Shown: in pieces, positions 1 to 60,090 of the stretch
Numbering within the stretch: position 1 is the stretch's first letter
How the letters are laid out: each line of letters opens with the position of its first letter
Source: Narcine bancroftii
Taxonomy: Eukaryota
Assembly: GCF_036971445.1 (NCBI RefSeq)
Contig: NC_091471.1
Location: 868,001 to 932,000, forward strand
DNA: 64,000 nt
Direction of reading: 5' to 3'
Notes under the pieces: generated by a model
What the model saw: the letters and a program-made list of their open reading frames with translations, nothing else
The model's database searches: none
Told to the model about the DNA's origin: nothing
Translations under genes and position numbers: made by a program

Positions 1-820
1 GAAGATGACGTTCAATGTGAACAAATGTGAGGTTATCCATTTTGGGGGCAATAATAGGAAAGCTGAGTATTATTTAAATGGAGACAAGCTAGGGAGTGGG
101 GAGGAGCAAGAGTACTTGTTCACCGGTCACTGAAGACTAGCATGCAGGTTCAGAAAGCTGTGAAGAAGTCTAATAGCATGTTGGCTTTCATAAAGAGGGG
201 ATTGGAGTATAGGAACAGAGACGCCCTTCTTCAGTTGTACAGGGCCCTGGTGAGACCCCAGCTGGAGTATTGCGTCCAGTTCTGGTCTCCAATTTTGAGG
301 AAGGACATACTAGCTATAGAGGGTGTGCAGCGCAGATTTACAAGGTTAGTTCCAGGGATGGCGGGGTTGACATATGCTGAAAGGCTAGAAAAACTGGACT
401 TGTATCCGATGGAGTTTAGAAGGATGAGGGGGGACATGATTGAGGTCTACAAAATCATCAGGGGGATAGACAGGGTGAAGTCGGATTACTTGTTCCCAGT
501 GATGGGGGAGACGAGGACTAGAGGGCATAGTTTAAGAATACAGGGTAGGCCCTTTAGGACGGAGATGAGAAAACATTTTTTTACCCAGAGAAGTGTGAAT
601 CTGTGGAATGCTCTGCCACAGAGAGTGGTAGATGCAGATTCGCTGATTATGTTCAAAAGAGAGTTAGATAAGACTCTAGTGGGCAAATGAGTTAAGGGTA
701 ATGGGGATAAGGCTGGAAAGGGGTACTGATGGTAGTGATCATCCATGATCTGTAAAATGGCGGTGCTGGCTCGACGGGCCGAAGGGCCTACTCCAGCTCC
801 TATTGTCTATTGTCTATTGT
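1..820 (+). mobile_element. CR1-clade LINE, 3' part of ORF2 and 3' tail
   Basis: ORF 142..690 has the CR1 C-terminal motifs (LYRALVRPQLEYCVQFWSP, RRMRGDMIEVYKI, TRGHSLR, HFFTQR.VNLWNALP). It ends in a short tandem tail (CTATTGT)n at about 798-820. Confidence 0.9.
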
Positions 821-1044: not shown

Positions 1045-1080
1045 TTGCTCCCTCTCACTTCACCATCTTCTCTCCACAGG
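1045..1080 (+). promoter_or_regulatory. Splice acceptor of the ZNF-A coding exon
   Basis: CTCAC branch-point-like motif and pyrimidine tract, then CAG|G (AG at 1078-1079). The same sequence is conserved upstream of all three ZNF ORFs. Confidence 0.7.
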
Positions 1081-1257
1081 GTGAAGAAAGCAGCGCGTTT
1101 CAAAGCTGGAAGCTTCAGACAACGCCAAGTGGTGGTCTGACCCTCTGACTGGATTCCTCGGGACTTTAGTATCAGCCAGATATCTCGGTGGATTAGGAGC
1201 ACGGAGAATCCCTACACCAATTGAGTGTATGAACAGGACTTCAGCTGATTGGCTGAC

Positions 1258-2685
1258 ATGAAGGATCAGGTGACCAGTGATACGACAGATAAAATACTCC
1301 AAAGTGAAGCATGTGGTGAGGAGGGGCTTCCTGTGGACTTGCTGAAATTACATCCCTGCGCTCACCCTGGGGACCCACCGTTCCCCTGTTCCGAATGTGG
1401 GGAGGGATTCCCCAGCTCTGATGCATTGTTGCAACACCAGTGTGTCCCCACTAGGGGGAGCCCATCCCCCTGCTCTGACTGTGGGAAGAGCTTTCAAACC
1501 TCGAAAGACTTGGAGGAACAGGGGTGTGTTCCCCCTGGAGGGAGTCCATTCACCTGCCGCGTGTGTGGGAAGGGGTGTGTTTCCCATGGGGAGAGTCCGT
1601 TCACCTGCTGCATGTGTGGGAAGGGGTTTGTTCCCCCTGAAGGGAGTTCTTTCACCTGTCGTGTGTATGGGAAGGGGTGTGTTTCCCCTGGAGAGAGTCC
1701 GTTCACCTGCCATATGTATAGGAAGGAGTGTGTTTCCCCAGGGGAGAGTCCATTCACCTGTCACGTGTGTGGGAAGGAATTCACCCAGTCCTCCAGCCTC
1801 CTACAGCACCAGAGAATTCACACTGGGGAGAAACCGTTTACTTGCTCCCTGTGCGGGATTAGATGTACTTACTCCTCCCAACTGCGGGCACATGAACGGG
1901 TTCACACTGGGGAGAAATCATTCAGCTGCTCCCTGTGTGGGAAGGGGTTTTCTCACTCCTCCACCCTACAGAGGCACCAGAGAGTTCACACCGGGGAGAA
2001 ACCGTTCACCTGCTCCCTGTGTGGGAGGGGGTTCTCTCGGTCCTCCAACCTGCAGGTACATCAACGGGTTCACACTGGGGAGAAACCGTTTACCTGCTCC
2101 CTCTGTGGAAAGGGGTTCTCTCAGCCCTCTGACCTGCTGAAGCACAAGAGAGTTCACACTGGGGAGAGACCATTCACGTGTTCACTGTGTGGGAAGGGGT
2201 TCTCTCAGGCTTCTATCTTGCTGAGGCACCAGAGAATTCACACCGGGGAGAAACCATTCACTTGCTCCCTGTGTGGGAAGGGGTTCTCTCGGCCCTCCGG
2301 CCTGCAGGACCACCAACGGGTTCACACTGGGGAGAAACCATTCACCTGCCTCCTGTGTGGAAAGGGGTTCTCTCGGCACTCCAGCCTGCAGGACCATCAG
2401 CGGGTTCACACCAGAGAGAAACCATTCACCTGCTCCCTGTGTGGGAAGGGGTTTTCTCACTCCTCCAATCTGCTGCGGCACCAGAGAGTTCACACAGGGG
2501 AGAAACCATTCACCTGCTCCCTGTGTGGGAAGGGGTTTGCCCAGTCCTCCTCTCTGGAGAGCCACCGAAGAATTCACAATGGGGAGAGACCATTCACCTG
2601 CTCAGTTTGTGGGATTGGATTCATCCGGTCCACATACCTTCTCAGGCATCAGAGAGTTCACACTGGGGAGAAATTATTCACATGA
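1258..2685 (+). CDS. Tandem C2H2 zinc-finger protein ZNF-A (11 canonical fingers, N-terminal C2HC fingers, 5 x 17-aa Cys-rich repeat)
   Basis: First ATG at 1258 with an in-frame TGA upstream at 1246. Repeated CxxC-x12-H-x3-H units joined by TGEKPF linkers. The N-terminus is paralogous to ZNF-B and ZNF-C. Confidence 0.9.
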   Translation: MKDQVTSDTTDKILQSEACGEEGLPVDLLKLHPCAHPGDPPFPCSECGEGFPSSDALLQHQCVPTRGSPSPCSDCGKSFQTSKDLEEQGCVPPGGSPFTCRVCGKGCVSHGESPFTCCMCGKGFVPPEGSSFTCRVYGKGCVSPGESPFTCHMYRKECVSPGESPFTCHVCGKEFTQSSSLLQHQRIHTGEKPFTCSLCGIRCTYSSQLRAHERVHTGEKSFSCSLCGKGFSHSSTLQRHQRVHTGEKPFTCSLCGRGFSRSSNLQVHQRVHTGEKPFTCSLCGKGFSQPSDLLKHKRVHTGERPFTCSLCGKGFSQASILLRHQRIHTGEKPFTCSLCGKGFSRPSGLQDHQRVHTGEKPFTCLLCGKGFSRHSSLQDHQRVHTREKPFTCSLCGKGFSHSSNLLRHQRVHTGEKPFTCSLCGKGFAQSSSLESHRRIHNGERPFTCSVCGIGFIRSTYLLRHQRVHTGEKLFT

Positions 2686-3330
2686 TCTATGTGTGAGAAG
2701 CGGTTCTCTCGTCCCTCCGGCATACAGGTACACCAGTGGTTCACACTGGGGAGAAACTATTCACCTGCTCCCTGTGCAGGAAGTCGTTCTCTCAGTCTTC
2801 CAGTCTGCGTTAAACTAACGGGTGCATACGAGGGAGAGACCATTCACCTGCTCCATGATTGGGATGGGATTCACTCAGGCCTTGGGCCTGCAGACACATC
2901 AGCAATTTCACGGGCAGAAACCATTCACCTGCTTTCAGTGTGAGGGGGGGCTCTGTCATCCTTCCAGCCTGTGGGTACACCAGCGGGTACACACTGGGGA
3001 GAAACCGTTCAACTGCTCCCTATGCGGGAAAGGTTCTCTCAGCCCTCCAGCTTTCAAGCACACCAGCGAGTTCACACTCATTGCTCGATGTATGGGATTG
3101 GTTTCTCCAGATCCTCCAACCTGCTGAGGCACCAGAGAGTTCACCCCTGAAGTAACCTTTCACTGCTCTCTGTGTGGGAAAGGGTTCTCTCAGCAGGCAG
3201 ATCAGTGGGTTTACACCGGGGAGAATCTGTTCACCTGCTCCCTGGATCAGATTCACTCAGTCCTCCGACCTGCTGAGCCACCAGACCTCCGGTCTGAGGG
3301 GACATCAGCAAGTTGACACAGGGAGAGAGT
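2686..3330 (+). pseudogene. Decayed C2H2 fingers continuing past the ZNF-A stop
   Basis: The stop is a TGA at the first Cys position of the next finger (FT*SMCEK). Finger and linker remnants ([29 protein letters not shown]) follow in shifting frames. Confidence 0.8.
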
Positions 3331-8520: not shown

Positions 8521-9875
8521 TGTGAGCTCTGTAGAGAATGAACTGTGGACACCGTGGAGAGTGAAATGTGGACTCTGTCGAGAGTGAAATGTGGATTCTG
8601 TGGAGAGTGAACGATGGACGCTGTGGAGAGTAAACTGTGGACTCTGTGGAGAGTGAACGATGGACGCTGTGGAGAGTGAACGATGGACGCTGTGGAGAGT
8701 GAACGATGGACGCTGTGGAGAGTAAACCGTAGACTCTGGAGAGTGGACCGTGGGTTCTGAGAAGATTGAAATGTGGAGAGTGAAGAATGGACACTGAGGA
8801 GAGTGAACCATCGAGTCTGTGAAGAGTGAACCGCGGACTGTGTGGACCGTGAACTCTGTGGAGAGAGAAACATCGTGTCTGTGGAGTGTGAAATGTGAAC
8901 TCGTGGAGAGTGAACCGTGGGCTCTATGGAGTGTGAGCCGTGGGCTCTTTGGAGAGTGAAATATGGAATCTGGATGTGAAATCTGTGAAGAGTGAACCAT
9001 GTACTCTGTGGACAGTGAATCTTGGACTCTGAGGAGAGTGAAACGTTGTGTCTGTGGAGAGTGAAATGTAGATTCTGTGGAGAGCGAACTGTGAACTCTG
9101 TGGAGAGTGAACCATGGGCACTGAAGAGTGCACTGTGTGCTCCTGGAGAGTGAACCATGGGCTCTATGGAAAGTGAGCCGTAGGCTCTTTGGAGAGTGAA
9201 CTATGGAATCTGTGGATTGTGAAATGTGAACAGTGAAACGTGTACTCTGTGGAGAGTGAAATGTGGACTCTGCGGAGAGTGAACCGGGGTTGCTGTGGAG
9301 AGTGAAATGTGGACACTGGAGAGTGAAATGTGGACACTGGAGAGTGAAATATGGACACTGTGGAGAGTGAAATGTGGACACTGTGGAGAGTGAAATGTGG
9401 ACTCTGTGGAGAGTGAGCCGTATGCTCTTTTGAGAGTGAAATGTGAACTCTGTGGAGTGTGAACATTGGGGTCTGTGCAGAGTGAACTGTGAGCTCTGTA
9501 CAGAGTGAACTGTGGACACTATGGAGAGTGAACCATGGACTCTGGAGAGTGAACCATGGACTCTGGAGAGTGAACCGTGGACTCTGTGGAGAGTGAACCA
9601 TGGTGTCTGTGCAGAGTGAATCGTGTGCTCTGTGGTGAGTGAACCATGGATTCTTTGGGGAGTGAACCTTGTACTCTGTGGGGAGTGAAGCATGGGCTCT
9701 TTGGAGAGTGAACCGTGAACTCTGTGGAGAGTGAAGCATGGGCTCTGTGCAGAGTGAACCACGGACACTGTGGAGTGTGAACTTTGGAGAGTGTACCCAT
9801 GGACTCTGAGGAGAGTGAATCGTGAACTGTGGAGAGTGAACCATGGACTCTGGAGAGTAAACTGTGGACACTGCA
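8520..9875. repeat. Minisatellite with 19-21 bp unit (GTGGAGAGTGAAATGTGGACTCT-like)
   Basis: Dozens of tandem GGAGAGTGAA-anchored units; the source of the spurious HSPQS-rich ORFs. Confidence 0.92.
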
Positions 9876-9879
9876 GACT

Positions 9880-15245: not shown

Positions 15246-16925
15246 TCACTTGCCGCCAGAGACCAGCCTCTCCTTGGCGTGAACCCGCTGGTGTGAACTC
15301 AGGCCGGAGGGCTGAGAGAACCCCTTCCCACACAGGGAGCAGGTGAACGGTTTCTCCCCAGTGTGAACCCGCTGATGTGTCTGCAGGCTGGAGGGCTGAG
15401 AGAACCCCTTCCCACACAGGGAGCAGATGAATGGTTTCTCCCCAGTGTGAACCCGCTGGTGTGTCTGAAGGTCAGAGGGCCGAGAGAACCCCTTCTTGCA
15501 CAGAGAGCAGGTGAACTGTTTCTCCCCGGTATGAACCCACTGGTGTGCCTGCAGGCCAGAGGGCCGTGAGAATCCCTTCCCACAAAGAGAGCAGGTGAAC
15601 AGTTTCTTCCTGGTGTGAACTCTCTGGTGCCTCAGTAAGTTAGAGGATCTAGTGAATCCAATCCCACACAGGGAGCAGATGAATGGTTTCTCCCCCGTGT
15701 GACTCCGCTGGTGTACTTTCAGATCAGAGGACTGAGTGAACCCCTTCCCGCACTGTGAGCAGGTGAACGGTTTCTCCCCAGTGTGAACCCGCTGGTGTGC
15801 CTGCAGGTTGCAGGGCCGAGAAAACCCCTTCCCACAGAGGGAGCAGATGAATGGTTTCTCCCCAGTGTGAATCCGCTGGTGTACCCGAAGGCCAGAGGAA
15901 TCAGAGAACCCCCTCCCACACAGGGAGCAGTCAAATGGTTTCTCCCTGGTGTGAACCCGCTGATGTGCTTGCAGGCCAGAGGGCCGAGAGAACCCCTTCC
16001 CACATAAGGAGCAGGTGAATGGTTTCTCCCCAGAGTGAACCCGCTGGTGTACTTGCAGGCTGGAGGACTGAGAGAAGCCCTTCCCACACAGGGAGCAGGT
16101 GAATGGTCTCTCCCCAGTGTGAACTCGCTGGTGAGCCCGAAGGCCAGAGGGATCAGAGAAACCCCTCCCGCACAGGGAGCAGGTGAACGGTTTCTCCCCG
16201 GTGTGAATTCTCTGGTGGACCCGCAGGCTGGAGGATCGAGAGAACCCCTTCCCACACACACAGCATTTAAAGCCTCTCTCCCCAGAGTGAATATTCTGGT
16301 GCTGCAGGAGGCTGGAGGACTGGGTGGACGGACTCTCCCCAGGGGGAACACAGCCCTTCCCACAGATGCGGTAGGTGAACGGACTCTCCCCAGGAGGAAC
16401 ACAGGCCTTCCCACAGACGCAGCAGGTGAACGAACTCTCCCCAGGGGGAACACACCCCTTCCCACAAACGTGGTAGGTGAACGGACTCTCCCCAGGAGGA
16501 ACACAACCTTTCCCACACACGCGACAGGTAAACGGACTCTCCCCAGGGGGAACACACCCCTTCCCACACACGTGGCAGATGAACGGACCCTCCCCAGGGG
16601 GAACACACCCCTTCCCACATACGCGGCAGGTGAACGAACTCTCCCCAGTGGGAACACACCCGTACCCCTCCAAGTCCTTGGAGGTTTGAAAGCTCTTCCC
16701 ACAGTTGGAGCAGGGGGATGGGCTCCCCCTAGTGGGGACACACTGTTGTTGCAGCAGTGCGTCAGAGCTGGCAAATCCCTCCCCACACTCAGAACAGGGG
16801 AATGGTGGGTCCCCAGGGTGAGCACAGGGATGTGATTCCAGCAAGTCCACAGGAAGCCCCTCCTCACCACACGCTTCACTTTGGAGTGTTTTATCTTCAG
16901 TATCATTGGTCACCTGACCCTCCAT
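15246..16925 (-). CDS. Tandem C2H2 zinc-finger protein ZNF-B (12 canonical fingers, C2HC-type N-terminus, about 6.5 x 17-aa Cys-rich repeat)
   Basis: Uninterrupted ORF from ATG 16925 with TGEKPF-linked fingers. The N-terminus is paralogous to ZNF-A and ZNF-C. Confidence 0.92.
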   Translation of the reverse strand: MEGQVTNDTEDKTLQSEACGEEGLPVDLLESHPCAHPGDPPFPCSECGEGFASSDALLQQQCVPTRGSPSPCSNCGKSFQTSKDLEGYGCVPTGESSFTCRVCGKGCVPPGEGPFICHVCGKGCVPPGESPFTCRVCGKGCVPPGESPFTYHVCGKGCVPPGESSFTCCVCGKACVPPGESPFTYRICGKGCVPPGESPSTQSSSLLQHQNIHSGERGFKCCVCGKGFSRSSSLRVHQRIHTGEKPFTCSLCGRGFSDPSGLRAHQRVHTGERPFTCSLCGKGFSQSSSLQVHQRVHSGEKPFTCSLCGKGFSRPSGLQAHQRVHTREKPFDCSLCGRGFSDSSGLRVHQRIHTGEKPFICSLCGKGFSRPCNLQAHQRVHTGEKPFTCSQCGKGFTQSSDLKVHQRSHTGEKPFICSLCGIGFTRSSNLLRHQRVHTRKKLFTCSLCGKGFSRPSGLQAHQWVHTGEKQFTCSLCKKGFSRPSDLQTHQRVHTGEKPFICSLCGKGFSQPSSLQTHQRVHTGEKPFTCSLCGKGFSQPSGLSSHQRVHAKERLVSGGK

Positions 16926-17116
16926 GTCAGCCAATCAGCTGAAGTCCAGTACACACACTTAACGGATGTAGGGATTCTCCGTGCGGTGATCTCTGGGATT
17001 CTAATCAACCGAGATATCTGGTTGATACTATCATCCCGAGGAATCCAGTCAGAGGGTCAGACCACAATGTGGCGTTGTCTGAAGCTTCCTGTCTGGAAAC
17101 GCGCCGCTTTCTTAAC

Positions 17117-17155
17117 CCTGTGGAGAGAAGATGGTGGAGTGAGAGGGAGCAAGGC
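17117..17155 (-). promoter_or_regulatory. Splice acceptor of the ZNF-B coding exon
   Basis: Minus strand reads CCCTCTCACTCCACCATCTTCTCTCCACAG|GG; the exon starts at 17117. Confidence 0.7.
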
Positions 17156-17319
17156 ATTCTCTACAGCCAATGTTCCAGGACAACACACCCTGAAGGCATG
17201 GCCAGAAGGATGAGAAACTGTGGAGTGCTTGAACCGTGAGGAGGATGAGACAAGTAGACACATGATGTCAGAGCCAAAACTCCCCCTCCCACAATCAATT
17301 CTCACCACCTTTCTCCTGT

Positions 17320-17510
17320 CCTACCATCTCTATTCAATTATTACCATTTGTCTGATGGTCTGTCCTCTCCCCCCTGCCTTTTCTTCCCTTCTCCCCAGCT
17401 TTTTAATCCAGGCACCTGTCTACTTTTTTACTCCTATTGGGAAGAAGGGCTCAAGCCTGAAACATTGGTTATATACCTTTACCACCTCTGGACGCTGAGA
17501 GACCTGCTGA
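17320..17510 (+). mobile_element. Penelope pLTR fragment with decayed hammerhead-like motif
   Basis: GAAGAAGGGCTCAAGCCTGAAACATTGGTTATAT...GACCTGCTGA. Confidence 0.6.
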
Positions 17511-18104: not shown

Positions 18105-20330
18105 GAGGAGGGAAAGAAAGAGAATGTTCCAGAACATTGGAGGAACTCAGCAGATCACGCAGCATCCATAGGAAGTAAAAGGTAAACAACGTTAGGGGCC
18201 TGAGCCCCCCCCCGGCTCACATATCAGGTAAACGCCTGAATAAAGAGGTGGGGGGAGGAACACAGGGTAAAACGTTAGAGGATCCACGTGGAGGGGGAGA
18301 AGCTGAGAAGGGATGGGGCGAGGACAGGACTGAGAAGGGGATGCTCTGACAGGAGATGGAGAGAAGGGGCTGGGGATGTAGGGAAGGAGATAGAAGAGGA
18401 GGGAAAGAGAGAGAATGTTCCAGAATGTGTTGAAAAAGATAAAGGTGGATAAATCTCCGGGACCGGACAAAATATTCCCAAGGACACTCAGGGAGGCTAG
18501 TGGACAGATAGTGGGACCATTAACAGAGATATTTAGGATGTCACTGGCCACGTGGGTAGTGCCAAAGGATTGGAGGGTGGCGCATGTGATTCCGCTGTTT
18601 AAGAAAGGGTCCAAATGTAAACCTGGAAATTATAGGCCCGTGAGTCTGACGTCTGTGGTGGGTAAGTTGATGGAAAGTGTTCTGAGGGATGGTATTTACA
18701 AATATTTGGAGGTACAGGGATTGCTAGGGAGTAATCAGCATGGTTTTGTCAGGGGTAGATCATGCTTGACAAACCTGATTGAGTTTTTCGAGGGGGTTAC
18801 AAAAAAGGTTGATGAAGGGAAAGCTGTGGATGCTGTCTATTTAGACTTTAGTAAAGCTTTTGACAAAGTTCCTCACAGGAGGTTAGGAAAAAAGGTGGAG
18901 GCATTAGGTATAAATGAGGAGGTAGTGAAATGGATTCAGCAATGGTTGGATCGAAGGTGTCAGAGAGTAGTGGTAGAAAATTGTTTGTCCAATTGGAGGC
19001 CGGTGACTAGTGGAGTTCCTCAGGGATCGGTCCTGGGTCCACTATTGTTTGTTATATATATTAACGATCTGGAAGCAGGGGTGGAGAATTGGATAAGCAA
19101 GTTTGCGGATGACACAAAGATTGGTGGTGTTGTGGACAGTGAGGAAGATTATCGTAGATTAAAAGGTGATTTAGGAAGGCTGGAGGTGTTGGCTGAGAAA
19201 TGGCTGGTGGAATTTAATACAGATAAGTGTGAGGTGTTACATTTTGGAAAGGCAAATCTAAATAGGTCATATGCATTAAATGGTCGGCTATTGAGATGTG
19301 CAGAGCAACAAAGGGATTTAGGAGTTGTGGTAAATAGTTCCCTCAAGGCTGATACTCAGGGAGATGGTGTGGTGAAGAAGGCATTTGGAATGTTGGCCTT
19401 CATAAATCGGAGTATTGAATTCAAGAGTAGGGAGGTTATGATGAAATTGTACAAGGCATTGGTGAGGCCAAATTTGGAGTACTGTGGACAGTTTTGGTCA
19501 CCAAATTATAGGAAAGATATAAACAAAATAGAGAGAGTGCAGAGAAGGTTCACGAGAATGTTGACAGGATTTCAAGGTTTGAGTTACAGGGAAAGGTTGT
19601 ACAGACTGGGGCTTTTTTCTCTCGAGCGTAGAAGATTGAGAGGGGACTTGATAGAGGTGTTTAAGATTTTAAAAGGGACAGACAGAGTCAACGTGGATAG
19701 GCTTTTTCAAATAAGAGTGGGGGAGATTCAAACTAGAGGGCATGGTTTAAGATTGAAGGGGGAAAATTATAAAGGGAACATGAGGGGAAATTTCTTTATG
19801 CAAAGGGTGGTAGGGATGTGGAATGAGCTTCCGACAGAGGTGGTCGAGGCGGGATCATTGGTTACATTTAAGGAAAGACTGGATAGTTACATGGATAGGA
19901 GAGGACTGGAGGGGTATGGACCGGGTGCTGGTCAGTGGGACAAGGAGGGTGGGGATTTGTTACGGAATGGACTAGTAGGGCCGAACTGGCCTGTTCTGTG
20001 CTGTAAGTGGTTATATGGTTATATGGTTAACGTTGGAGGAACTCAGCAGGTCACGCAGCATCCATAGGAAGTAAAAGGTAAACAACGTTAGGGCCCTGAG
20101 CCCCCCGTCACTTATCAGGTAAACCCCTGAATAAAGAGGTGGGGGGAGGAACACAGGATAGAACATTAGAGGATGTACGTGGAGGGGGAGAAGCTGAGAA
20201 GGGATGGGGCAAGGACAGGACTGAGAAGGGGATGCTCTGACAGGAGAGAGATAGCAGAGGGAAAGAGAGAATGTTCTGGAATGTTGGTTCCCTTTACTCC
20301 CTATGCAGTTTCTCCAGCACGTCTGTGCAT
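18105..20330 (-). repeat. Tandem pLTR-derived units of about 290 bp (18105-18425 and 20029-20330) split by a CR1 insertion
   Basis: GAGAATGTTCCAGAA-[C/A]..TTGGAGGAACTCAGCAG.TCACGCAGCATCCATAGGAAGTAAAAGG is repeated, and the CR1 sits at the unit junction. Confidence 0.75.
18426..20028 (+). mobile_element. Young 5'-truncated CR1 LINE with an open RT frame
   Basis: 550-aa ORF containing [31 protein letters not shown] and FADD, with an (ATGGTTAT)-type tail. Closely similar to the copy at 62.6-64 kb. Confidence 0.95.
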
Positions 20331-28599: not shown

Positions 28600-31500
28600 C
28601 ACACAAACAGTGACCACGGGAGGGATTCCCCAGTGAAGAGGCGAGAGCAGCTCCCTGTTCGCCTGAGGAGCCCTGCGACCAGCCCCCACACAGTGTCCAC
28701 GGGATGAAATCTCCAGTCAAGAGGCGAGAGCAGCTCCCTGCTACCCTGTGACCAGCCCCCACCAGGGCCCAGTGCCCTGACCCCACCAGGGCCCAGGCCC
28801 TGCAACCTGCCCCCACACAGTGCCCACAGGAGGAATTCCCTAGTGAAGGAGCGAGAGCGTCCCTGCTCCCGAGGGGCCGGTCCCAGCATCCAGCCCCCCA
28901 GTCCCCACCAGGTCCCAGTGTCCAGCTCCCACTGCGGCCCAGTGTCCAGCTCCCACAGCGGCCCAGTGGAGGAAATCCCCAGTGAAGAAGCCAGAGCGGC
29001 TCCCTGGTCCCCTGGGGGTCCCTGTGACCAGCCGCCACCTGGGCCCAGCGTCCAGCCCCCCAGTTCCCACCAGGGTCCAAGGAAGGAAGAGACGAGAGCT
29101 GCTCCCTGCTCCCCTGGGGGTCCCTGTGACCAGCCCCCACCAGGGCCCAGCATCCAGCCCCCAGTCCCCACCAGGGTCCAAGGGAGGAAGAGGTGAGAGC
29201 GGCTCCCTGCTCCCTAGGGGTCCCTGTGACCAGCCCCCACCCGAGTCCAGCGTGCAGCCCCCAGTCCACACCAGGGTCCAAGGGAGGAATGAGGCGAGAG
29301 ATGCTCCCCTGGGGTCCCTGCGTCCAACACCCCCCAGTCCCCACCAGGGCCAAGTGAGGAAGAGGCGAGAGCAGCTCCCTGCTCCCCTGCGGGTCCCTGT
29401 GACCAGACCCCACCCGGGCCCAGCGTCCAGCCCCACAGTCCCCACCAGGGCCCAAGGGAGGAAGTGGCGAGAGTGGCTCCCGGCTCCCCTGCGGGTCCCT
29501 GTGACCAGCCCCCACCTGGGCCCTGCGTCCAGCCCCCAGCCGCCACCAGGGCCCAAGGAGGAAGAGGCGAGAGCGGCTCCCTGCTCCCCTGCGGGTCCCT
29601 GTGACCAGCCCCCACCCGGGCCCTGCGTCCAGCCCCCCAGCCGCCACCAGGGCCCAAGGGAGGAAGAGGCGATAGTGGCTCCCCGCTCCCCTGCTGGTCC
29701 CTGTGACCATCCCCCACCCGGGCCCTGCGTCCAGCCCCCCAGCCGCCACCAGGGCCCAAGGGAGGAAGAGGCGATAGTGGCTCCCCGCTCCCCTGCTGGT
29801 CCCTGTGACCATCCCCCACCCGGGCCCTGCGTCCAGCCCCCCAGCCGCCACCAGGGCCCAAGGGAGGAAGAGGCGAGAGTGGCTCCCCGCTCCCCTGCTG
29901 GTCCCTGTGACCAGCCCCCCAGCTGCCACCAGGGCCCAAGGGAGGAAGAGGCGTAGAGCGGCACCCCGCTCCCCTGCGGGTCCCTGTGACCAGCCCCCAC
30001 CCGGGCCCTGCGTCCAGCCCCCAGCCGCCACCAGGGCCCAAGGGAGGAAGAGGCGAGAGTGGCTCCCCGCTCCCCTGCTGGTCCCTGTGACCAGCCCCCC
30101 AGCTGCCACCAGGGCCCAAGGGAGGAAGAGGCGAGAGTGGCTCCCCGCTCCCCTGCGGGTCCCTGTGACCAGCCCCATCCCCCCCAGCCGCCATCAGGGC
30201 CCAAGGGAGGAAGAAGCGAGACAGGCTCCTTGCTCCTCTGCGGGTCCCTGTGACCATCCCCCACCCTAGCCCAGCTTAAAGCCCCCCAGCCGCCACCAGG
30301 GCCCAAGGGAGGAAGAGGCGAGAGCGGCACCCCGCTCCCCTGCGGGTCCCTGTGACCAACCCCCACCCGGGCCCAGCGTCCAGCCCCCCAGCCGCCACCA
30401 GGGCCCAAGGGAGGAAGAGGCGAGAGTGGCTCCCCGCTCCCTGCTGGTCCCTGTGACCAGCCCCCCAGCTGCCACCAGGGCCCAAGGGAGGAAGAGGCGA
30501 GAGTGGCTCCCCGCTCCCCTGCGGGTCCCTGTGACCAGCCCCCATCCCCCCCAGCCGCCATCAGGGCCCAAGGGAGGAAGAAGCGAGACAGGCTCCTTGC
30601 TCCTCTGCGGGTCCCTGTGACCAGCCCCCACCCTAGCCCAGCTTAAAGCCCCCCGGCCGCCACCAGGGCCCAAGGGAGGAAGAGGCTGAGAGCGGCACCC
30701 CGCTCCCCTGCGGGTCCCTGTGACCAGCCCCCACCCAGACCCAGCGTCCAGCCCCCACCAGGGCCCAGCGTCCAGCACCACCCCGGCCGCCACCAGGGCC
30801 CAAGGGAGGAAGAGGCGAGAGTGGCTCCCCTGCGGGTCCCTGTGACCAACCCCCACCCGGGCCCAGCGTCCAGCCCCCCAGCCGCCACCAGGGCCCAAGG
30901 GAGGAAGAGGCGAGAGTGGCTCCCCGCTCCCCTGCTGGTCCCTGTGACCAGCCCCCCAGCTGCCACCAGGGCCCAAGGGAGGAAGAGGCGAGAGTGGCTC
31001 CCCGCTCCCCTGCGGGTCCCTGTGACCAGCCCCCATCCCCCCCAGCCGCCATCAGGGCCCAAGGGAGGAAGAAGCGAGACAGGCTCCTTGCTCCTCTGCG
31101 GGTCCCTGTGACCAGCCCCCACCCTAGCCCAGCTTAAAGCCCCCCAGCCGCCACCAGGCCCAAGGGAGGAAGAGGCGAGAGCGGCACCCCGCTCCCCTGC
31201 GGGTCCCTGTGACCAACCCCCACCCGGGCCCAGCGTCCAGCCCCCCAGCCGCCACCAGGGCCCAAGGGAGGAAGAGGCGAGAGTGGCTCCCCGCTCCCCT
31301 GCTGGTCCCTGTGACCAGCCCCCCAGCTGCCACCAGGGCCCAAGGGAGGAAGAGGCGAGAGTGGCTCCCCGCTCCCCTGCGGGTCCCTGTGACCAGCCCC
31401 CATCCCCCCCAGCCGCCATCAGGGCCCAAGGGAGGAAGAAGCGAGACAGGCTCCTTGCTCCTCTGCGGGTCCCTGTGACCAGCCCCCACCCTAGCCCAGC

Positions 31501-33740
31501 TTAAAGCCCCCCGGCCGCCACCAGGGCCCAAGGGAGGAAGAGGCGAGAGCGGCACCCCGCTCCCCTGCGGGTCCCTGTGACCAGCCCCCACCCAGACCCA
31601 GCGTCCAGCCCCCACCAGGGCCCAGCGTCCAGCACCACCCCGGCCGCCACCAGGGCCCAAGGGAGGAAGAGGCGAGAGTGGCTCCCCTGCGGGTCCCTGT
31701 GACCAACCCCCACCCGGGCCCAGCGTCCAGCCCCCCAGCCGCCACCAGGGCCCAAGGGAGGAAGAGGCGAGAGTGGCTCCCCGCTCCCCTGCTGGTCCCT
31801 GTGACCAGCCCCCCAGCTGCCACCAGGGCCCAAGGGAGGAAGAGGCGAGAGTGGCTCCCCGCTCCCCTGCGGGTCCCTGTGACCAGCCCCCATCCCCCCC
31901 AGCCGCCATCAGGGCCCAAGGGAGGAAGAAGCGAGACAGGCTCCTTGCTCCTCTGCGGGTCCCTGTGACCAGCCCCCACCCTAGCCCAGCTTAAAGCCCC
32001 CCAGCCGCCACCAGGGCCCAAGGGAGGAAGAGGCGAGAGCGGCACCCCGCTCCCCTGCGGGTCCCTGTGACCAACCCCCACCCGGGCCCAGCGTCCAGCC
32101 CCCCAGCCGCCACCAGGGCCCAAGGGAGGAAGAGGCGAGAGTGGCTCCCCGCTCCCCTGCTGGTCCCTGTGACCAGCCCCCCAGCTGCCACCAGGGCCCA
32201 AGGGAGGAAGAGGCGAGAGTGGCTCCCCGCTCCCCTGCGGGTCCCTGTGACCAGCCCCCATCCCCCCCAGCCGCCATCAGGGCCCAAGGGAGGAAGAAGC
32301 GAGACAGGCTCCTTGCTCCTCTGCGGGTCCCTGTGACCAGCCCCCACCCTAGCCCAGCTTAAAGCCCCCCGGCCGCCACCAGGGCCCAAGGGAGGAAGAG
32401 GCGAGAGCGGCACCCCGCTCCCCTGCGGGTCCCTGTGACCAGCCCCCACCCAGACCCAGCGTCCAGCCCCCACCAGGGCCCAGCGTCCAGCACCACCCCG
32501 GCCGCCACCAGGGCCCAAGGGAGGAAGAGGCGAGAGTGGCTCCCCTGCGGGTCCCTGTGACCAACCCCCACCCGCGCCCAGCGTCCAGCCCCCCAGCCGC
32601 CACCAGGGCCCAAGGGAGGAAGAGGCGAGAGTGGCTCCCCGCTCCCCTGCGGGTCCCTGTGACCAGCCCCCACCCGGGCCCTGCGTCCAGCCCCCCAGCT
32701 GCCACCAGGGCCCAAGGGAGGAAGAGGCGAGAGTGGCTCCCCGCTCCCCTGCGGGTCCCTGTGACCAACCCCCACCCGGGCCCAGCGTCCAGCCCCCCAG
32801 CCGCCACCAGGGCCCAAGGGAGGAAGAGGCGAGAGCGGCACCCTGCTCCCCTGCGGGTCCCTGTGACCAGCCCCCACCCAGACCCAGCGTCCAGCCCCCA
32901 CAAGGGCCCAGCGTCCAGCACCACCCCGGCCGCCACCAGGGCCCAAGGGAGGAAGAGGCGAGAGTGGCTCCCCGCTCCCCTGGGGGCCCCTGTGACCAAC
33001 CCCCACCAGGGCCCAGCGTCCAGCCCCCCCCAGCCGTCACCAGGGCCCCCAAGTGAGGAAGAGGCGAGAGCGGCTCCCTGCTCCCCTGCGGGTCCCTGTG
33101 ACCAACCCCCACCCGGGCCCTGCGTCCAGCCCCCCAGCCGCCACCAGGGCCCAAGGGAGGAAGAGGCGAGAGTGGCTCCCCGCTCCCCTGCGGGTCCCTG
33201 TGACCAGCCCCCACCCGGGCCCTGCGTCCAGCCCCCCAGCTGCCACCAGGGCCCAAGGGAGGAAGAGGCGAGAGTGGCTCCCCGCTCCCCTGCGGGTCCC
33301 TGTGACCAACCCCCACCCGGGCCCAGCGTCCAGCCCCCCAGCCGCCACCAGGGCCCAAGGGAGGAAGAGGCGAGAGCGGCACCCTGCTCCCCTGCGGGTC
33401 CCTGTGACCAGCCCCCACCCAGACCCAGCGTCCAGCCCCCACAAGGGCCCAGCGTCCAGCACCACCCCGGCCGCCACCAGGGCCCAAGGGAGGAAGAGGC
33501 GAGAGTGGCTCCCCGCTCCCCTGGGGGCCCCTGTGACCAACCCCCACCAGGGCCCAGCGTCCAGCCCCCCCCAGCCGTCACCAGGGCCCCCAAGTGAGGA
33601 AGAGGCGAGAGCGGCTCCCTGCTCCCCTGCGGGTCCCTGTGACCAGCCCCCACCCAGACCCAGCGTCCAGCCCCCCGGCTGCCACCAGGGCCCAAGTGAG
33701 GAAGAGGCGAGAGCGGCTCCCCGCTCCCCTGCCGGTCCCC
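28600..33740. repeat. GC-rich satellite (70-120 bp monomers), left arm of the inverted duplication
   Basis: Core GGGCCCAAGGGAGGAAGAGGCGAGAGTGGCTCCCCGCTCCCCTGCGGGTCCCTGTGACCAGCCCC repeated, with higher-order periodicity. Confidence 0.95.
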
Positions 33741-33924
33741 GTTGTCCTCAATGGGCCCTTTTCTCGGCCTTTCGGCCCCAGACTGGGCCGGGCCCCGATC
33801 TGGGTTCATGTGGCTCCTGCACCACCAACTCGGCCACAGATCAGCAGCTCAGCTCCCAGCAACTGCTCCCCGCCCTCATACACATTCAGGGGCTTCAATA
33901 CAGACGGAACTTCAGCAAATCACC

Positions 33925-34200
33925 AACTTACCGGCGAACCCTTCCTCACACTCACAGGCTGAAGGGATCCGACATGGCGGCGCCGACACGTGAGCACCAC
34001 GGCCCAATCAGATGAATGTTCAACCCGAGCTGCACATGCGGCAGGCGGCCAGCAGGTGGGGCTGAGACGCGCCGGTGAGGACCACGTGGCCGGGACGTCA
34101 CCTGCTCCCTGATCAGTAGGTGTTTGTTAAAAACCACGTGACAAGAATGCCTGGAAAAAGTCCCTGATCTGGTCCAGTGAGGCCATGTTGGGGTCACGGA
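33925..34200 (-). promoter_or_regulatory. CpG-rich promoter and first exon (putative ZNF-B); donor CCG|GTAAGT at 33932/33931
   Basis: Three CACGTG E-boxes, TGACGTC, CCAAT, a CTCF-like motif, GCCGCCATG and a consensus donor. Reverse complement of 41240-41520. Confidence 0.6.
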
Positions 34201-34429
34201 TCATTCCGCCATCTGCTCCGGACCTTCTCCCCAAGGGGAGCAGCGTGATGAGGACGTGGCCTGGGTGGCGGGGTCCTTGAGGAGAGAGGCTGCTCGTTGA
34301 CGTCCTCGATGGAGCGATGTCGCCGAGTTAACAACCCTCTGGAGTTTATTCTTTTCCTGAATATTTATATACTCACACAAGCTTGTACAGCCGTATCCAG
34401 TGTCCTGCCAACGATGGCAGTTCACAATA

Positions 34430-34629
34430 NNNNNNNNNNNNNNNNNNNNNNNNNNNNNNNNNNNNNNNNNNNNNNNNNNNNNNNNNNNNNNNNNNNNNNN
34501 NNNNNNNNNNNNNNNNNNNNNNNNNNNNNNNNNNNNNNNNNNNNNNNNNNNNNNNNNNNNNNNNNNNNNNNNNNNNNNNNNNNNNNNNNNNNNNNNNNNN
34601 NNNNNNNNNNNNNNNNNNNNNNNNNNNNN
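34430..34629. other. Assembly gap (200 N)
   Basis: Run of N. Confidence 1.
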
Positions 34630-35690
34630 TAGAACGCGGGACCCCCCCCAGAACGCGGGACCCCCCCAGAACGCGGGACCCCCCCTCCCCCCCCCCAGAA
34701 CGCGGGAACCCCCCCCCTCCCCCCCAGAACGCGGGAACCCCCCTCCCCCCCAGAACGCGGGACCCCCCCCTCCCCCCCAGAACGCGGGACCCCCCCCCTC
34801 CCCCCAGAACGCGGGACCCCCCCCTCCCCCCCCAGAAAGCGGGACCCCCCCAGAACGCGGGACCCCCCCAGAACGCGGGACCCCCCCAGAACGCGGGACC
34901 CCCCCCAGAACGCGGGACCCCCCCCAGAACGCGGGACCCCCCCAGAACGCGGGACCCCCCCACCGACCCCCAGAACGCGGGACCCCCCCAGAACGCGGGA
35001 CCCCCCCAGAAACGCGGGACCCCCCCAGAACGCGGGACCCCCCCAGAACGCGGGACCCCCCCAGAACGCGGGACGCCCCCAGAACGCGGGACGCCCCCAG
35101 AACGCGGGACGCCCCCAGAACGCGGGACGCCCCCAGAACGCGGGACCCCCAGAACGCGGACCCCCCAGAACGCGGGACCCCCCCAGAACGCGGGACCCCC
35201 CCAGAACGCGGGACCCCCCCCAGAACGCGGGACCCCCCCTCCCCCACAGAACGCGGGACCCCCCCTCCCCCCCAGAACACGGGACGCCCCCAGAACGCGG
35301 GACGCCCCCAGAACGCGGGACGCCCCCAGAACGCGGGACCCCCCCTCCCCCACAGAACGCGGGACCCCCCCTCCCCCACAGAACGCGGGACCCCCCCCTC
35401 CCCCACAGAACGCGGGACCCCCCCTCCCCCACAGAACGCGGGACCCCCCCCTCCCCCACAGAACGCGGGACCCCCCCTCCCCACAGAACGCGGGACCCCC
35501 CCTCCCCCACAGAACGCGGGACCCCCCCTCCCCCACAGAACGCGGGACCCCCCCTCCCCCCACAGAACGCGGGACCCCCCCCTCCCCCCCAGAACGCGGG
35601 ACGCCCCCAGAACGCGGGACGCCCCCAGAACGCGGGACGCCCCCAGAACGCGGGACGCCCCCAGAACGCGGGACCCCCCCCCCCTCCCCC
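34630..35690. repeat. Minisatellite with about 18-bp core CAGAACGCGGGACCCCCC (C-rich plus strand, G-rich minus strand)
   Basis: Directly visible tandem units with variable C runs. Confidence 0.95.
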
Positions 35691-35899
35691 ACTCACCCAC
35701 CCACCCCACCCCACCTAACCTCCCTCCCGGCCGCTCCAGACCCTCTGAGCCCGTGAAAAGTCTCACCTTAACACCTTGCAAAGCCTCACTGGACCCGGCC
35801 GGTCTCTGAGGGAACGACGCTCATGACGCGGGTCATGTCGGTGATGTCATCACGCATGACTCCGCTGACACTGGGCAGTATGTGAAGGAGCGGCAAAGT

Positions 35900-38255: not shown

Positions 38256-38589
38256 GCGGCCGGCCCGGGTCAGCGAGACGTTCCCAGGTGAAATCTGCCC
38301 CCGGGGAAACGCAGTGTGAATCGTGACCGGGAAGAAGGTGGAAGAAAGCAGCGAGGAAGGGGGGACAGAGTCTGAGCGACTGTCAGGAGGGGGAGGAAGG
38401 GCCCTGGATGATGGGAACCAGCCCGGAACCTCCGTCCTGGATCGTTCCCTTTGCTACATCAGGACACGGTTGGAGCTGCCGAGTTTCTCCCGCCTTGTGT
38501 GTTTCCACTTCAACCCGGGGTCTGCACTTCCGGGTTTCACTTGGTGCAAACAAACGAACGATGCAAAGCAGGAAAGAAATCTCCAAGAA

Positions 38590-40339: not shown

Positions 40340-41230
40340 AGATGCAGATGCAATATCGCTGGCTCTCCACTCAACTCTGGTTCACCTCAAAAACAACAAA
40401 CTCATAAATACGGCTTCTTCCACAGCTCAGCCCTTCAACACCATTATTCCCTCAGTACTGGTCAAGAAGCTACAAACTCTAGACCTCTGTACCCCCTCTG
40501 CAACTGGATCTTTGACTTTCTCATTGGAAGGCCATAGTCCGTACGAATTGGAAACCACGTCTCCTCCTCACTGATCATCAACACAGGTTGCACCCCAAGG
40601 ATGTGTGCTTAGCCCACTGCTCTACTCGTTATATAGCCGTGTCCGTGGCCAGCCACAATTCCAATGCTATTACAAGTTTTCTGATGACACCCACATTTGT
40701 CGGCAGAATCACAAACGGCAATGAAGAAGTGTACAGTGGGGAGAGAGATCAACTCGTTGAATGGTTTAAGGACAACAACCATATGCTCAACATCAGCAAA
40801 ACTAAGGAGGCGATTGTGGACTTCAGGAGGAAGTCAGGGGAACTCGATCCAGTCCTCATTGAGGGCTCAGTAGTGGAGGGGTGTCAAGAACTTCAAATTC
40901 CTGGGTCCAACATCTCCTGAGGATCCATCCACGTTGATGCAATCACAAAGGGGTCTCGCCAGCGGGCTATACTTTGTGAGGTGTCTGAGGCGGTTGGCGG
41001 TCACTGAAGACTCTAGTAAACATTTACAGCTGTACCATAGAGACATTCTGGCTAGTTGCATCACTGCCTGGTACGAAGGCACAACTCTCAGGACAAGAAT
41101 AAACTCCAGAGGGTTAACTCGGCGACATCGCTCCATCGAGGACGTCGACGAGCAGCTTCTCTCCTCAAGGACCCCACCACCCAGGCCACGTCCTCATCAC
41201 GCTGCTCCCCTTGGGGAGAGGTCCCGGAGC
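40340..41230 (+). mobile_element. Rex/Babar-type LINE RT fragment
   Basis: [38 protein letters not shown] and ILASCITAWY. Confidence 0.8.
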
Positions 41231-41239
41231 AGATGGCGA

Positions 41240-41520
41240 ATGATCCGTGACCCCAACATGGCCTCACTGGACCAGATCAGGGACTTTTTCCAGGCATTCT
41301 TGTCACGTGGTTTTTAACAAACACCCACTGATCAGGGAGCAGGTGACGTCCCGGCCACGTGGTCCTCACCGGCGCGTCTCAGCCCCACCTGCTGGCCGCC
41401 TGCCGCATGTGCAGCTCGGGTTTGAACATTCATCTGATTGGGCCGTGGTGCTCACGTGTCGGCGCCGCCATGTCGGATCCCTTCAGCTGCGAGTGTGAGG
41501 AAGGGTTCGCCGGTAAGATT
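41240..41520 (+). promoter_or_regulatory. CpG-rich promoter and first exon (putative ZNF-C); donor CCG|GTAAGA at 41512/41513
   Basis: GTCACGTGG at 41302, TGACGTC at 41344, CCACGTGG at 41355, CTCF-like 41381-41398, ATTGG at 41437, CACGTG at 41453, and GCCGCCATG (YY1/Kozak-like) with ATG at 41470. Confidence 0.62.
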
Positions 41521-41709
41521 GGTGTATTTGCCTGAAGTTCCGTCTGTATTGAAGCCCCTGAATGTGTATGAGGGCGGGGAGCAGTTGCTGGGAGCTGGAG
41601 CTGCTGATCTGTGGGCCGAGTTGGTGGTGCAGGAGCCACATGAACCCAGATCGGGGCCCGGCCCAGTCTGGGGCCGAAAGGCCGAGAAAAGGGCCCATTG
41701 AGGACAACG

Positions 41710-58596: not shown

Positions 58597-58773
58597 GTTA
58601 GGAAAGCAGCGCGTTTCCAGGCAGGAAGCTTCAGACAACGCCACGTTGTGGTCTGACACTCTGACTGGATTCCTTGGAACCGTGGTATCAGCCAGATATC
58701 TCGGTGGATTAGGAACACGGAGAATCCCTACACCCACTGAGTGCATGAACTGGACTTCAGCTGAGAGGCTGAC

Positions 58774-60090
58774 ATGAAGGATCAGGTGACCAATGATATG
58801 GCAGATAAAACACTCCAAAGTGAAGCGTGTGGTGAGGAGGGGCTTCCTGTGGACTTATTGGAATCGCATCCCTTCGCTCACCCTGGGGACCCACCGTTCC
58901 CCTGTTCCGAGTGTGGGGAGGGATTCCCCAGCTCTGACGCACTGCTGCAACACCAGTGTGTCCCCACTAGGGGGAGCCCATCCCCCTGCTCTGACTGTGG
59001 GAAGAGCTTTCAAACCTCCAAGGACCTGGAGGGGCACGGGTGTGTTCCCCCTGGGGAGTGTCCGTTCACCTGTCACGTGTGTGGGAAGGGGTTTACCCAG
59101 TCCTCCAGCCTCCTGCAACACCAGAACATTCGCTCCAGGGAGAGAGGCTTTAAATGCTGTGTATGTGGGAAGGGGTTCTCTCAATCGTCGAACCTCCTGA
59201 CGCACCAGAGAATTCACACTGGGGAGAAACCGTTCACCTGCTCCCTGTGTGGGAAGGGGTTCTCTCACTCCTCCACCCTGCTGGCACACCAGTCAGTTCA
59301 TACCGGGAAGAAACCGTTCACCTGCTCCCTGTGTGGGAAGGGGTACTCTACGTCCTACAGCCTGCAGACACACCAGTGGGTTCACACTGGGGAGAAACCG
59401 TTCACCTGCTCACTGTGTGGGAAGGGGTTCTCTCGACCCTCCGGCCTGCAGGCACACCAGCGTGTTCACACTGGGGAGAAACCATTCACCTGCTCCTTCT
59501 GCAGGAAGGGATTCTCTCAGCCATCCGCCCTGCATGAACACCGACGGATTCATACTGGGGAGAAACCATTCAGTTGCTCCCTGTGTGGGATCAGATTCAC
59601 TCATTCCTCCAACATGCGGAGGCATCAGAGAATTCACTCTGGGAAGAAACCATTCACCTGCTCCCTGTGCGGGAAGGGGTTCTCTCGACCTTCTGACCTG
59701 CAAACACACCAGTGGTTTCACACCGGGGAGAAACTGTTTACCTGTTCCCTGTGTGGGAAGGGTTTCTCTCAGTTCTCCAGCCTGCAGGCACACCAGTGGG
59801 TTCACACTGGGGAGAAACCGTTTACCTGCTCCCTGTGTGGGAAGGGGTTCTCTCAGTCCTCTAGCTTGAGGGTACACCAGAGGGTTCACACCGGGGAGAA
59901 ACCATTCACCTGCTCTTTGTGTGGGAAGAGGTTCTCTCGGCTATCCGGCCTGCAGGCACACCAGCGGGTTCACACTGGGGAGAAACCATTCACCTGCTCC
60001 GTGTGTGGGAAGCGATTTTCTCATTCTAGCCATGTGCAGAAGCACCAGCGGGTTCACACCAGGGAGAGACCGTTCTCATCCACCAAGTGA
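58774..60090 (+). CDS. Tandem C2H2 zinc-finger protein ZNF-C (11 canonical fingers, two intact C2HC fingers, single 17-aa unit)
   Basis: 438-aa ORF with TGEKPF linkers and an in-frame TGA three codons upstream of the ATG. A decayed finger remnant follows the stop. Confidence 0.92.
   Translation: MKDQVTNDMADKTLQSEACGEEGLPVDLLESHPFAHPGDPPFPCSECGEGFPSSDALLQHQCVPTRGSPSPCSDCGKSFQTSKDLEGHGCVPPGECPFTCHVCGKGFTQSSSLLQHQNIRSRERGFKCCVCGKGFSQSSNLLTHQRIHTGEKPFTCSLCGKGFSHSSTLLAHQSVHTGKKPFTCSLCGKGYSTSYSLQTHQWVHTGEKPFTCSLCGKGFSRPSGLQAHQRVHTGEKPFTCSFCRKGFSQPSALHEHRRIHTGEKPFSCSLCGIRFTHSSNMRRHQRIHSGKKPFTCSLCGKGFSRPSDLQTHQWFHTGEKLFTCSLCGKGFSQFSSLQAHQWVHTGEKPFTCSLCGKGFSQSSSLRVHQRVHTGEKPFTCSLCGKRFSRLSGLQAHQRVHTGEKPFTCSVCGKRFSHSSHVQKHQRVHTRERPFSSTK

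What the first reader, a model, noticed from the sequence alone, without database searches (positions are those of the whole stretch)
1522..1776. Copy-number-variable 17-aa Cys-rich half-finger repeat in the N-terminus of KRAB-less ZNF proteins
Seen: a 51-bp in-frame unit GCVPPGESPFTCRVCGK (C-x9-C-x2-C-x3 period) occurs 5 times in ZNF-A (1522-1776), 6 plus a partial in ZNF-B (16661-16326) and once in ZNF-C (59038-59088). Each unit is the last Cys of a C2HC finger, a linker and the CxxC knuckle of the next finger, with the recognition helix and His pair missing. GGGT microhomology at Gly-Cys and Gly-Phe suggests origin by slippage. Known: vertebrate tandem-ZNF clusters usually carry KRAB, SCAN or BTB effectors at this position; none is visible here. 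Inference: this could be a lineage-specific all-Cys metal-binding or interaction module, or an expandable spacer, standing in for an effector domain. Cys-to-Tyr/Phe changes in several units argue for relaxed constraint.
Basis: partly seen in the sequence, partly recalled or inferred. Interest (0 to 1): 0.75.

Follow-up and report, generated by a model that had tools for sequence, protein, structure and literature searches.

The report
Half-finger repeat in ray zinc-finger genes
In zinc-finger genes of what is likely a ray, a 51-base piece of two worn-out fingers is repeated in frame up to six times, but its cysteines change as often as its other residues, so it is likely a tolerated floppy spacer rather than a new functional domain.

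Summary
The repeat is real: 5 units in ZNF-A, 6 plus a partial in ZNF-B. ZNF-C has no repeat; its knuckles keep the 28-residue spacing, as does (but for one missing residue) the closest named relative, a Narcine (electric ray) protein. The whole N-terminus is decayed C2H2 fingers, and the unit is one finger's tail plus the next knuckle, duplicated between GGGT ends. Contigs with three or more tandem units, or net 51-base differences, occur in runs of three coded organisms, so it is not confined to this window. A 17-residue spacing was absent from 235 other zinc-finger proteins. Evidence against a metal module: Cys change as often as other residues (5/36 vs 27/168); internal units give dN/dS 0.60, not distinguishable from 1; AlphaFold2 gives no fold. 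Lacking KRAB is normal here (0 of 9 shark and ray proteins carry KRAB/SCAN/BTB), and in-frame stops block fusion of an upstream exon. Best reading: an old, tolerated, likely disordered spacer. The scan reported finger-only elasmobranch clusters before on other DNA, but not this repeat. The 88 residues before it are under purifying selection and are the better lead.

The parts
1047..1079 (+). Pyrimidine tract and CAG splice acceptor of ZNF-A coding exon (predicted)
   Evidence: Shared by A, B, C
1080..1257 (+). 5' untranslated part of the ZNF-A coding exon, 178 nt, three in-frame stops, the last four codons before the ATG
1258..2685 (+). ZNF-A reading frame, 475 aa, 11 intact C2H2 fingers, ends at a TGA in a knuckle position
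1297..1521 (+). Decayed or atypical fingers F0-F2 of ZNF-A (28-residue register; F0 is an intact C2H2 finger in Narcine)
1522..1776 (+). Five 51-bp half-finger units of ZNF-A; the last knuckle belongs to the first intact finger
2686..3244 (+). Broken finger remnants behind the ZNF-A stop (frameshifts and stops)
15246..16925 (-). ZNF-B reading frame, 559 aa, 12 intact C2H2 fingers
16323..16661 (-). Six units plus a partial in ZNF-B; the partial joins a helix whose knuckle is deleted
16926..17150 (-). ZNF-B 5' untranslated part (192 nt, exon start 17117) and acceptor
   Evidence: loose ends behind 17117/17119 in the presumed RNA run X5
33932..33981 (-). Candidate first exon for ZNF-B: Kozak ATG at 33975, donor after 33932, in a G+C-rich, CpG-retaining stretch (predicted, junction not seen)
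41464..41512 (+). Candidate first exon for ZNF-C, inverted near-copy of the one above (predicted, junction not seen)
58774..60090 (+). ZNF-C reading frame, 438 aa, 11 intact fingers, uniform 28-residue spacing: the unduplicated state
59038..59088 (+). Single-copy source segment of the unit in ZNF-C (tail of F2, linker, knuckle of F3)

Best explanation
The repeat is an in-frame 51-base minisatellite that likely arose by mis-registered duplication inside already decayed N-terminal zinc fingers of a large finger-only gene family of what is likely a ray, and it likely persists as a tolerated, predicted-disordered spacer in front of the DNA-reading fingers. Shown: the unit equals the last 9 codons of finger F2 plus the first 8 of F3; GGGT flanks the source segment; 51 is a multiple of 3, so the frame survives; the N-terminus is in finger register throughout. 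Inferred: a first duplication at the GGGT microhomology, then gain and loss of whole units by slippage or unequal crossing-over; the units then aged separately (about as diverged from each other as the genes are); selection keeps the frame open and removes some harmful changes but does not protect the cysteines; DNA binding is done by the 11-12 intact fingers downstream.
For: Ancestral state: C has 13 of 13 spacings of 28; Narcine XP_069798627.1 is 73% identical over 91% of C's first 110 residues, single copy, and its first motif is an intact C2H2 finger. Cys changed at 5 of 36 sites vs 27 of 168 other sites (Fisher p 1.0); helix-less knuckles lost 4 of 20 Cys vs 0 of 68 Cys and 0 of 68 His in the arrays (p 0.002). 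dN/dS 0.45 in the units vs 0.19 in the 31 equivalent stretches of intact fingers (Fisher p 0.04). The 8 internal units: ML omega 0.60, 2 x delta lnL 1.3 against omega 1, not significant; internal A units 0.87-0.96. AlphaFold2: residues 6-216 under pLDDT 50, intact fingers in the same model 72-83, single sequence and 4-row alignment. Pfam at E up to 10 and PDB sequence search return only C2H2-linker similarity or weak hits; no Atlas hit for the repeat. Unit number differs between relatives: joints of net -51 bases at 16607-16610 to 16667 in X1, X5 and X8, and contigs leaving the array into the next helix.
Against: All 12 units together give omega 0.41, below 1 (LRT p 0.006), and internal B units alone 0.37-0.41 (p 0.025-0.041, uncorrected). 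The arrays are old (synonymous difference 0.23-0.25 between units), have no stop or frameshift, and occur in runs of three coded organisms. The 5 Cys changes may be only 3 events (A3/A4 and B4/B6 share theirs); with 2 knuckle events in 20 vs 0 in 68 the p is about 0.05 (by hand). AlphaFold2 without zinc and with 1-4 rows is weak evidence of disorder. Only 17 codons x 12 units were tested.
Confidence: 0.7

Rival explanations
1. The repeat is a real all-Cys zinc module: successive CxxC knuckles, 13 residues apart, pair up (Cys4 sites, like zinc ribbons or DnaJ-type repeats) and form a protein-interaction surface, working in B-like members and decaying in A.
For: C-x2-C-x13-C-x2-C spacing is chemically suitable (sequence; resemblance to zinc ribbon, nuclear receptor and DnaJ motifs is recalled, from no call). 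Internal B omega about 0.4. Multi-unit contigs in three coded organisms. 17-residue spacing is rare elsewhere (0 of 2558 spacings under 60 at 12-22), which fits either a special module or a rare accident.
Against: B itself lost a knuckle Cys in 2 of 6 units, A in 2 of 4 helix-less units. Cys no better kept than other residues. No Pfam or PDB match to any Cys4 family, DnaJ included, at E up to 10. No predicted fold. C and Narcine lack it.
Confidence: 0.1
2. The repeat-bearing genes are on the way to being pseudogenes and the repeat is part of that decay.
For: A ends at a TGA in a knuckle position with broken fingers behind it; internal A units evolve neutrally; B lost the knuckle of F3; the listed multi-unit contigs in the presumed RNA run have low depth, 7-10, and could be DNA.
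Against: 0 of 68 Cys and 0 of 68 His lost in the arrays; finger framework omega 0.17; first 88 codons omega 0.35, p about 0.004; frames of 475 and 559 codons are open; acceptor conserved.
Confidence: 0.1
3. The spacer length is itself selected: unit number sets the distance between a conserved N-terminal interaction module (atypical C-x2-C-x12-H-x-C fingers F1-F2) and the DNA-reading array.
For: First 88 codons are under purifying selection and 73% identical to Narcine. C-x2-C-x12-H-x-C recurs in unrelated ZNF proteins: 35 motifs beside 4102 C2H2 fingers, 13 of them in one lungfish protein. Frame-preserving changes only.
Against: No partner known; His of F2 lost in A and B, His of F1 lost in B, first Cys of F1 lost in Narcine. 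Wide spread of unit number (1, 5, 6+) fits drift equally well. No test of selection on length was possible.
Confidence: 0.1

Closest known systems
Tandem (polydactyl) C2H2 ZNF genes with finger gain and loss by internal duplication or deletion (Nowick et al. 2011, PMC3126818, passages read)
   Same: Array of 28-residue fingers in one exon; internal duplications and deletions are a common path of divergence; non-functional fingers occur.
   Different: The duplicated unit is 17 residues, out of finger register, and lies in decayed fingers; 0 of 2558 spacings in 235 other ZNF proteins and 0 of 3786 by a looser motif were 17.
Finger-only chondrichthyan ZNF proteins (Narcine XP_069798627.1; Heterodontus and Carcharodon 'ZNF850/271/585A-like' models)
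   Same: No KRAB, SCAN or BTB (0 of 9); same linker and finger style; Narcine shares the whole N-terminus.
   Different: None of the named proteins has the repeat; the shark proteins do not share this N-terminus.
KRAB-ZNFs and cyprinid FiNZ-ZNFs (PMC10547256, PMC11603059, passages read)
   Same: Lineage-specific expanded ZNF family with a conserved N-terminal stretch.
   Different: Their effector is a non-finger domain on its own upstream exon; here the N-terminus is finger-derived, on the finger exon, behind in-frame stops.
PRDM9 finger array as a coding minisatellite (PMC3890296, search listing only)
   Same: Coding tandem repeat in a ZNF gene that changes by unit number.
   Different: PRDM9 units are whole 84-base fingers that read DNA; these 51-base units have no recognition helix and are 6-29% diverged from each other (3-15 of 51 bases).
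Xenopus FAR 'finger-associated repeat' ZNF subfamily (recalled, no text seen; search found nothing)
   Same: Recalled as short repeats N-terminal to a finger array in a lineage-specific family.
   Different: Not compared; no homology claimed.

Membership tests
Tandem C2H2 ZNF gene (host genes) | Three or more C-x2-C-x12-H-x3-H fingers with TGEKPF-type linkers | tested here: met
   11, 12 and 11 fingers; PF00096 and PF13465 far above cut-off
C2H2 finger (the unit itself) | Recognition helix and two His ligands | tested here: not met
   Unit has knuckle and linker only
KRAB / SCAN / BTB-ZNF | Effector domain in the protein | tested here: not met
   No such Pfam family at E up to 0.1 in A, B, C or their N-termini
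KRAB / SCAN / FiNZ-type architecture | Upstream coding exon spliced in frame to the finger exon | tested here: not met
   In-frame stops in the exon's 5' part in all three genes, one of them four codons before the ATG; holds for the acceptor found; a second acceptor further down is not excluded
Cys4 zinc module (zinc ribbon, DnaJ CxxCxGxG, nuclear-receptor type) | Profile or structure match | tested here: not met
   No such family in Pfam at E up to 10 or among 60 PDB sequences at E up to 10; HMMER filters drop most weak matches
Cys4 zinc module | Ligand Cys conserved better than surrounding residues | tested here: not met
   5 of 36 vs 27 of 168, p 1.0
Cys4 zinc module | Defined fold | tested here: inconclusive
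   pLDDT under 50, but no zinc and at most 4 rows
Cys4 zinc module | Stoichiometric zinc binding | not testable with these tools
   Needs protein
C2HC finger (the finger before the unit) | C-x2-C-x12-H-xn-C with all four ligands | tested here: inconclusive
   Ligand set complete only in C (H-x-C spacing); His lost in A and B; the H-x-C variant recurs in other ZNFs; no paper on it found (one search returned WRKY papers)
Coding minisatellite | Head-to-tail units of 10-100 bases in a reading frame, with unit number differing between copies | tested here: met
   variation between individuals not tested

The most novel reading that the evidence does not exclude
Electric rays built their own zinc-finger effector out of old fingers: the conserved 88-residue N-terminus of atypical H-x-C fingers recruits partners, and in some paralogues a 17-residue half-finger repeat extends it into a ladder of Cys4 zinc sites, a new fold born from a broken C2H2 finger.
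Probability: 0.1. Interest if true: 0.65.

Novelty: new variant of a known kind. Interest (0 to 1): 0.27.

Why it matters
On the best reading it matters little: it shows that finger arrays can also duplicate out of register and that decayed N-terminal fingers absorb such events. It is a small, dated example of how a repeat protein segment arises from a folded domain. The open question it touches is how the large finger-only ZNF families of sharks and rays act without KRAB; the repeat is unlikely to be the answer, but the purifying selection on the 88 residues in front of it gives a testable candidate.

Tried and rejected
No whole genome is held for the window, so paralogues could not be counted in the assembly. 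No RNA holder on record was listed; X5 is only guessed to be RNA. Homologue searches found one true relative only (Narcine) among 7994 scored candidates, 18 longer and 17 near-length candidates; proteins under 240 residues were not searched. Teleost and frog hits were read and are ordinary or short-helix fingers, not this repeat. The phmmer list (best 150 of 38801) is ranked by summed finger score, so a repeat-bearing protein could lie below it. Atlas: no hit for the repeat, only generic ZNF clusters for C's N-terminus. A DnaJ-like reading (recalled motif) found no support. Fold search was not run because both models are low-confidence in the region. Two loose-end sequences of X5 were not found in the window at up to 3 mismatches, so the upstream exon is not tied to the acceptor by data. 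An alternative frame in the 5' part of the exon is open in C and read into the Narcine model, but shows omega 1.00: rejected as a conserved coding effector. Literature searches for the repeat or for chondrichthyan ZNF N-termini found no description; subscription and older papers are not covered, and no supplements were opened.

Full report
Observation. The window holds three tandem C2H2 zinc-finger reading frames: A (1258-2685, +, 475 aa, 11 intact fingers), B (16925-15246, -, 559 aa, 12) and C (58774-60090, +, 438 aa, 11). A 51-base in-frame repeat is present as described, 5 units in A and 6 plus a partial in B. Knuckle spacing is 28, 28, then 17 four times in A and five times in B, then 28 (36 once in B); in C all 13 spacings are 28. 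C is therefore the unduplicated state, not a one-copy repeat. No further copy of this N-terminus lies in the window (blastn).

What the unit is made of. Set against the 31 equivalent stretches of intact fingers, the unit aligns codon for codon with [17 protein letters not shown]: its first Cys sits where the Arg of HQRxH is, and Pro replaces the second His. The closest named relative is Narcine bancroftii XP_069798627.1 (electric ray), 73% identical over 91% of C's first 110 residues. It has one copy, and the motif that reads S-x2-C in the window reads C-x2-C-x12-H-x3-H there. So the 'preceding 90 aa' are also fingers (F0-F2), decayed or atypical, and the source is likely a ray (inferred from this hit). 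F1 and F2 have the pattern C-x2-C-x12-H-x-C where complete (F1 in A and C, F2 in C only).

Origin. In C the source segment begins with GGGT and is followed by GGGT, which is what a microhomology-guided tandem duplication would need (mechanism inferred). B's partial unit runs straight into the helix of F3; relative to C, 27 bases between TT(C/T)ACC ends are missing, so that finger has no knuckle. Units differ by 3-15 of 51 bases; synonymous difference is 0.25 within A and 0.23 within B, like that between the genes' N-termini (0.16-0.24). The arrays are old, not freshly slipped. The unit tree does not pair A units with B units by position, so one shared expansion or two separate ones cannot be told apart.

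Spread. No assembly is held. Fourteen public runs of four coded organisms hold part of the A stretch, at most 0.40 of its words. Four of them were laid on B 16326-17400 at 80% likeness: 940, 646, 159 and 397 contigs, most under 95% alike, with 31-62 contigs at several single positions in X1, so this is a large family. Listed contigs span about 4 units plus upstream sequence in X1 (record 1) and X5 (records 8, 9), over 3 units in X8 (records 16, 17) and about 3 in X9 (records 24-26), at 83-89% identity. Joints of net -51 bases (16607-16610 to 16667) are listed in X1, X5 and X8, and 15 contigs of X1 and 4 of X8 leave the array at 16556 into the next helix. Only the best-supported rows were shown, placement within a tandem array is ambiguous, and contigs show presence only. 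Outside this family the spacing is rare: 0 of 2558 knuckle spacings under 60 were 12-22 in 235 other proteins, and 2 of 3786 by a looser motif, neither 17.

Selection. All 12 units: omega 0.45 by counting, 0.41 by ML, below 1 (p 0.006), but above the 0.19 of the equivalent canonical stretches (Fisher p 0.04). Four units touch parts of ancestral fingers (A1, B1, C1, A5); without them the 8 internal units give 0.60, with 2 x delta lnL 1.3 against omega 1 (p about 0.26, by hand). Internal A is neutral (0.87-0.96), internal B is 0.37-0.41 (p 0.025-0.041, uncorrected). Cys changed at 5 of 36 sites, other residues at 27 of 168 (p 1.0); helix-less knuckles lost 4 of 20 Cys, the arrays, taken by register, 0 of 68 Cys and 0 of 68 His (p 0.002). 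Shared changes may reduce the knuckle losses to 2 events (p about 0.05, by hand). The first 88 codons give omega 0.31-0.37 (p 0.001-0.004). The data are small, but the pattern is weak general constraint without protection of the would-be ligands.

Structure. AlphaFold2 on B 1-300 gave pLDDT under 50 for nearly all of residues 1-216 and 72-83 for the three intact fingers, from a single sequence and from a 4-row alignment. Without zinc or a deep alignment this is weak. Pfam at E up to 10 gave only the C2H2 linker model (E 0.0015-0.004) and weaker scraps; the top PDB hits were C2H2 proteins; the Atlas gave no usable hit.

Is an effector missing? A, B and C share a pyrimidine tract and CAG acceptor 178-192 bases before the ATG, with several in-frame stops between, one four codons before the ATG in all three. 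In X5, guessed to be RNA, 4 and 8 contigs have loose ends behind 17117 and 17119, the predicted exon start, and summed depth falls from 52327 to 1949 there while it rises in the other three runs; this fits splicing at that site in paralogues, from one run of uncertain kind. Candidate first exons with a Kozak ATG and a GTAAG donor lie at 33975-33932 (-) and 41470-41512 (+); no junction was seen. Whatever lies upstream cannot be fused in frame through this acceptor. Nine named chondrichthyan ZNF proteins carry no KRAB, SCAN or BTB at E up to 1e-5. PMC11603059 (passages) reports only PRDM9 in whale shark and places the KRAB-ZNF ancestor in bony fishes; PMC10547256 (passages) calls KZNFs a sarcopterygian subfamily and does not mention sharks in its main text; PMC8455134 (passages) finds KRAB enriched among families absent from cartilaginous fishes. 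Being KRAB-less is thus the norm for this lineage. Earlier scan notes describe finger-only elasmobranch clusters in other genomes and a promoter family with private minisatellites in this one (unchecked notes); a sequence look-up of B's N-terminus found no related note.

Verdict. Real, old, lineage-restricted and unusual in register, but best read as a tolerated spacer made from decayed fingers (0.7). An all-Cys module (0.1), decay of the genes (0.1) and a selected spacer length (0.1) remain. Finger gain and loss by internal duplication is well described (PMC3126818, passages); an out-of-register 17-residue version was not found in print by searches, which do not cover most subscription or older papers. 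Class: new variant of a known kind; interest 0.27.

Noticed in passing
window 1258-1521, 16925-16662, 58774-59037: The 88 codons before the repeat (decayed or H-x-C-type fingers F0-F2) are under purifying selection (omega about 0.35) and conserved to Narcine; a better effector candidate than the repeat.
   Followed up: partly
window 33650-34350 (-) and 41100-41800 (+): Inverted, 97% identical promoter-like cassettes (CCAAT box, E-box, GCCGCCATG, GTAAG donor) facing B and C, each followed by a G+C-rich 102-base minisatellite array (about 28600-33740 and 41800-46300); far more alike than the B and C coding exons, which suggests recent conversion or duplication. Several one-base differences in homopolymers may be assembly errors.
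   Followed up: partly
window 1229-1261 and 58745-58777: A 10-codon upstream ORF in A and C ends in an ATGA stop-start overlap with the main start; in C the frame is open through the whole 5' part and would join the first-exon ATG. Omega 1.00 in that frame.
   Followed up: partly
window 2683-3244: ZNF-A stops at a TGA in a knuckle position; about six broken fingers follow, so the gene has been shortened from its 3' end.
   Followed up: partly
P0004 (Narcine XP_069798627.1): Its annotated N-terminus matches the non-coding 5' part of the window genes in another frame and several knuckle Cys are lost, so the model may be a frameshifted pseudogene.
   Followed up: partly
window 8527-9877, 34631-35714, 35901-38256: Further tandem arrays (23-, 18- and 30-base units), with an assembly gap of Ns near 34430-34630.
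   Followed up: no
window 67-690, 18394-20067, 49849-50913, 62601-63999: Pieces of reverse-transcriptase-like (LINE-type) reading frames around the genes; label from motif recall, not scanned.
   Followed up: no
P0094 (lungfish), P0150 (sea urchin): Repeated, well-kept C-x2-C-x12-H-x-C fingers (13 and 7 times), apparently a conserved atypical finger class.
   Followed up: no
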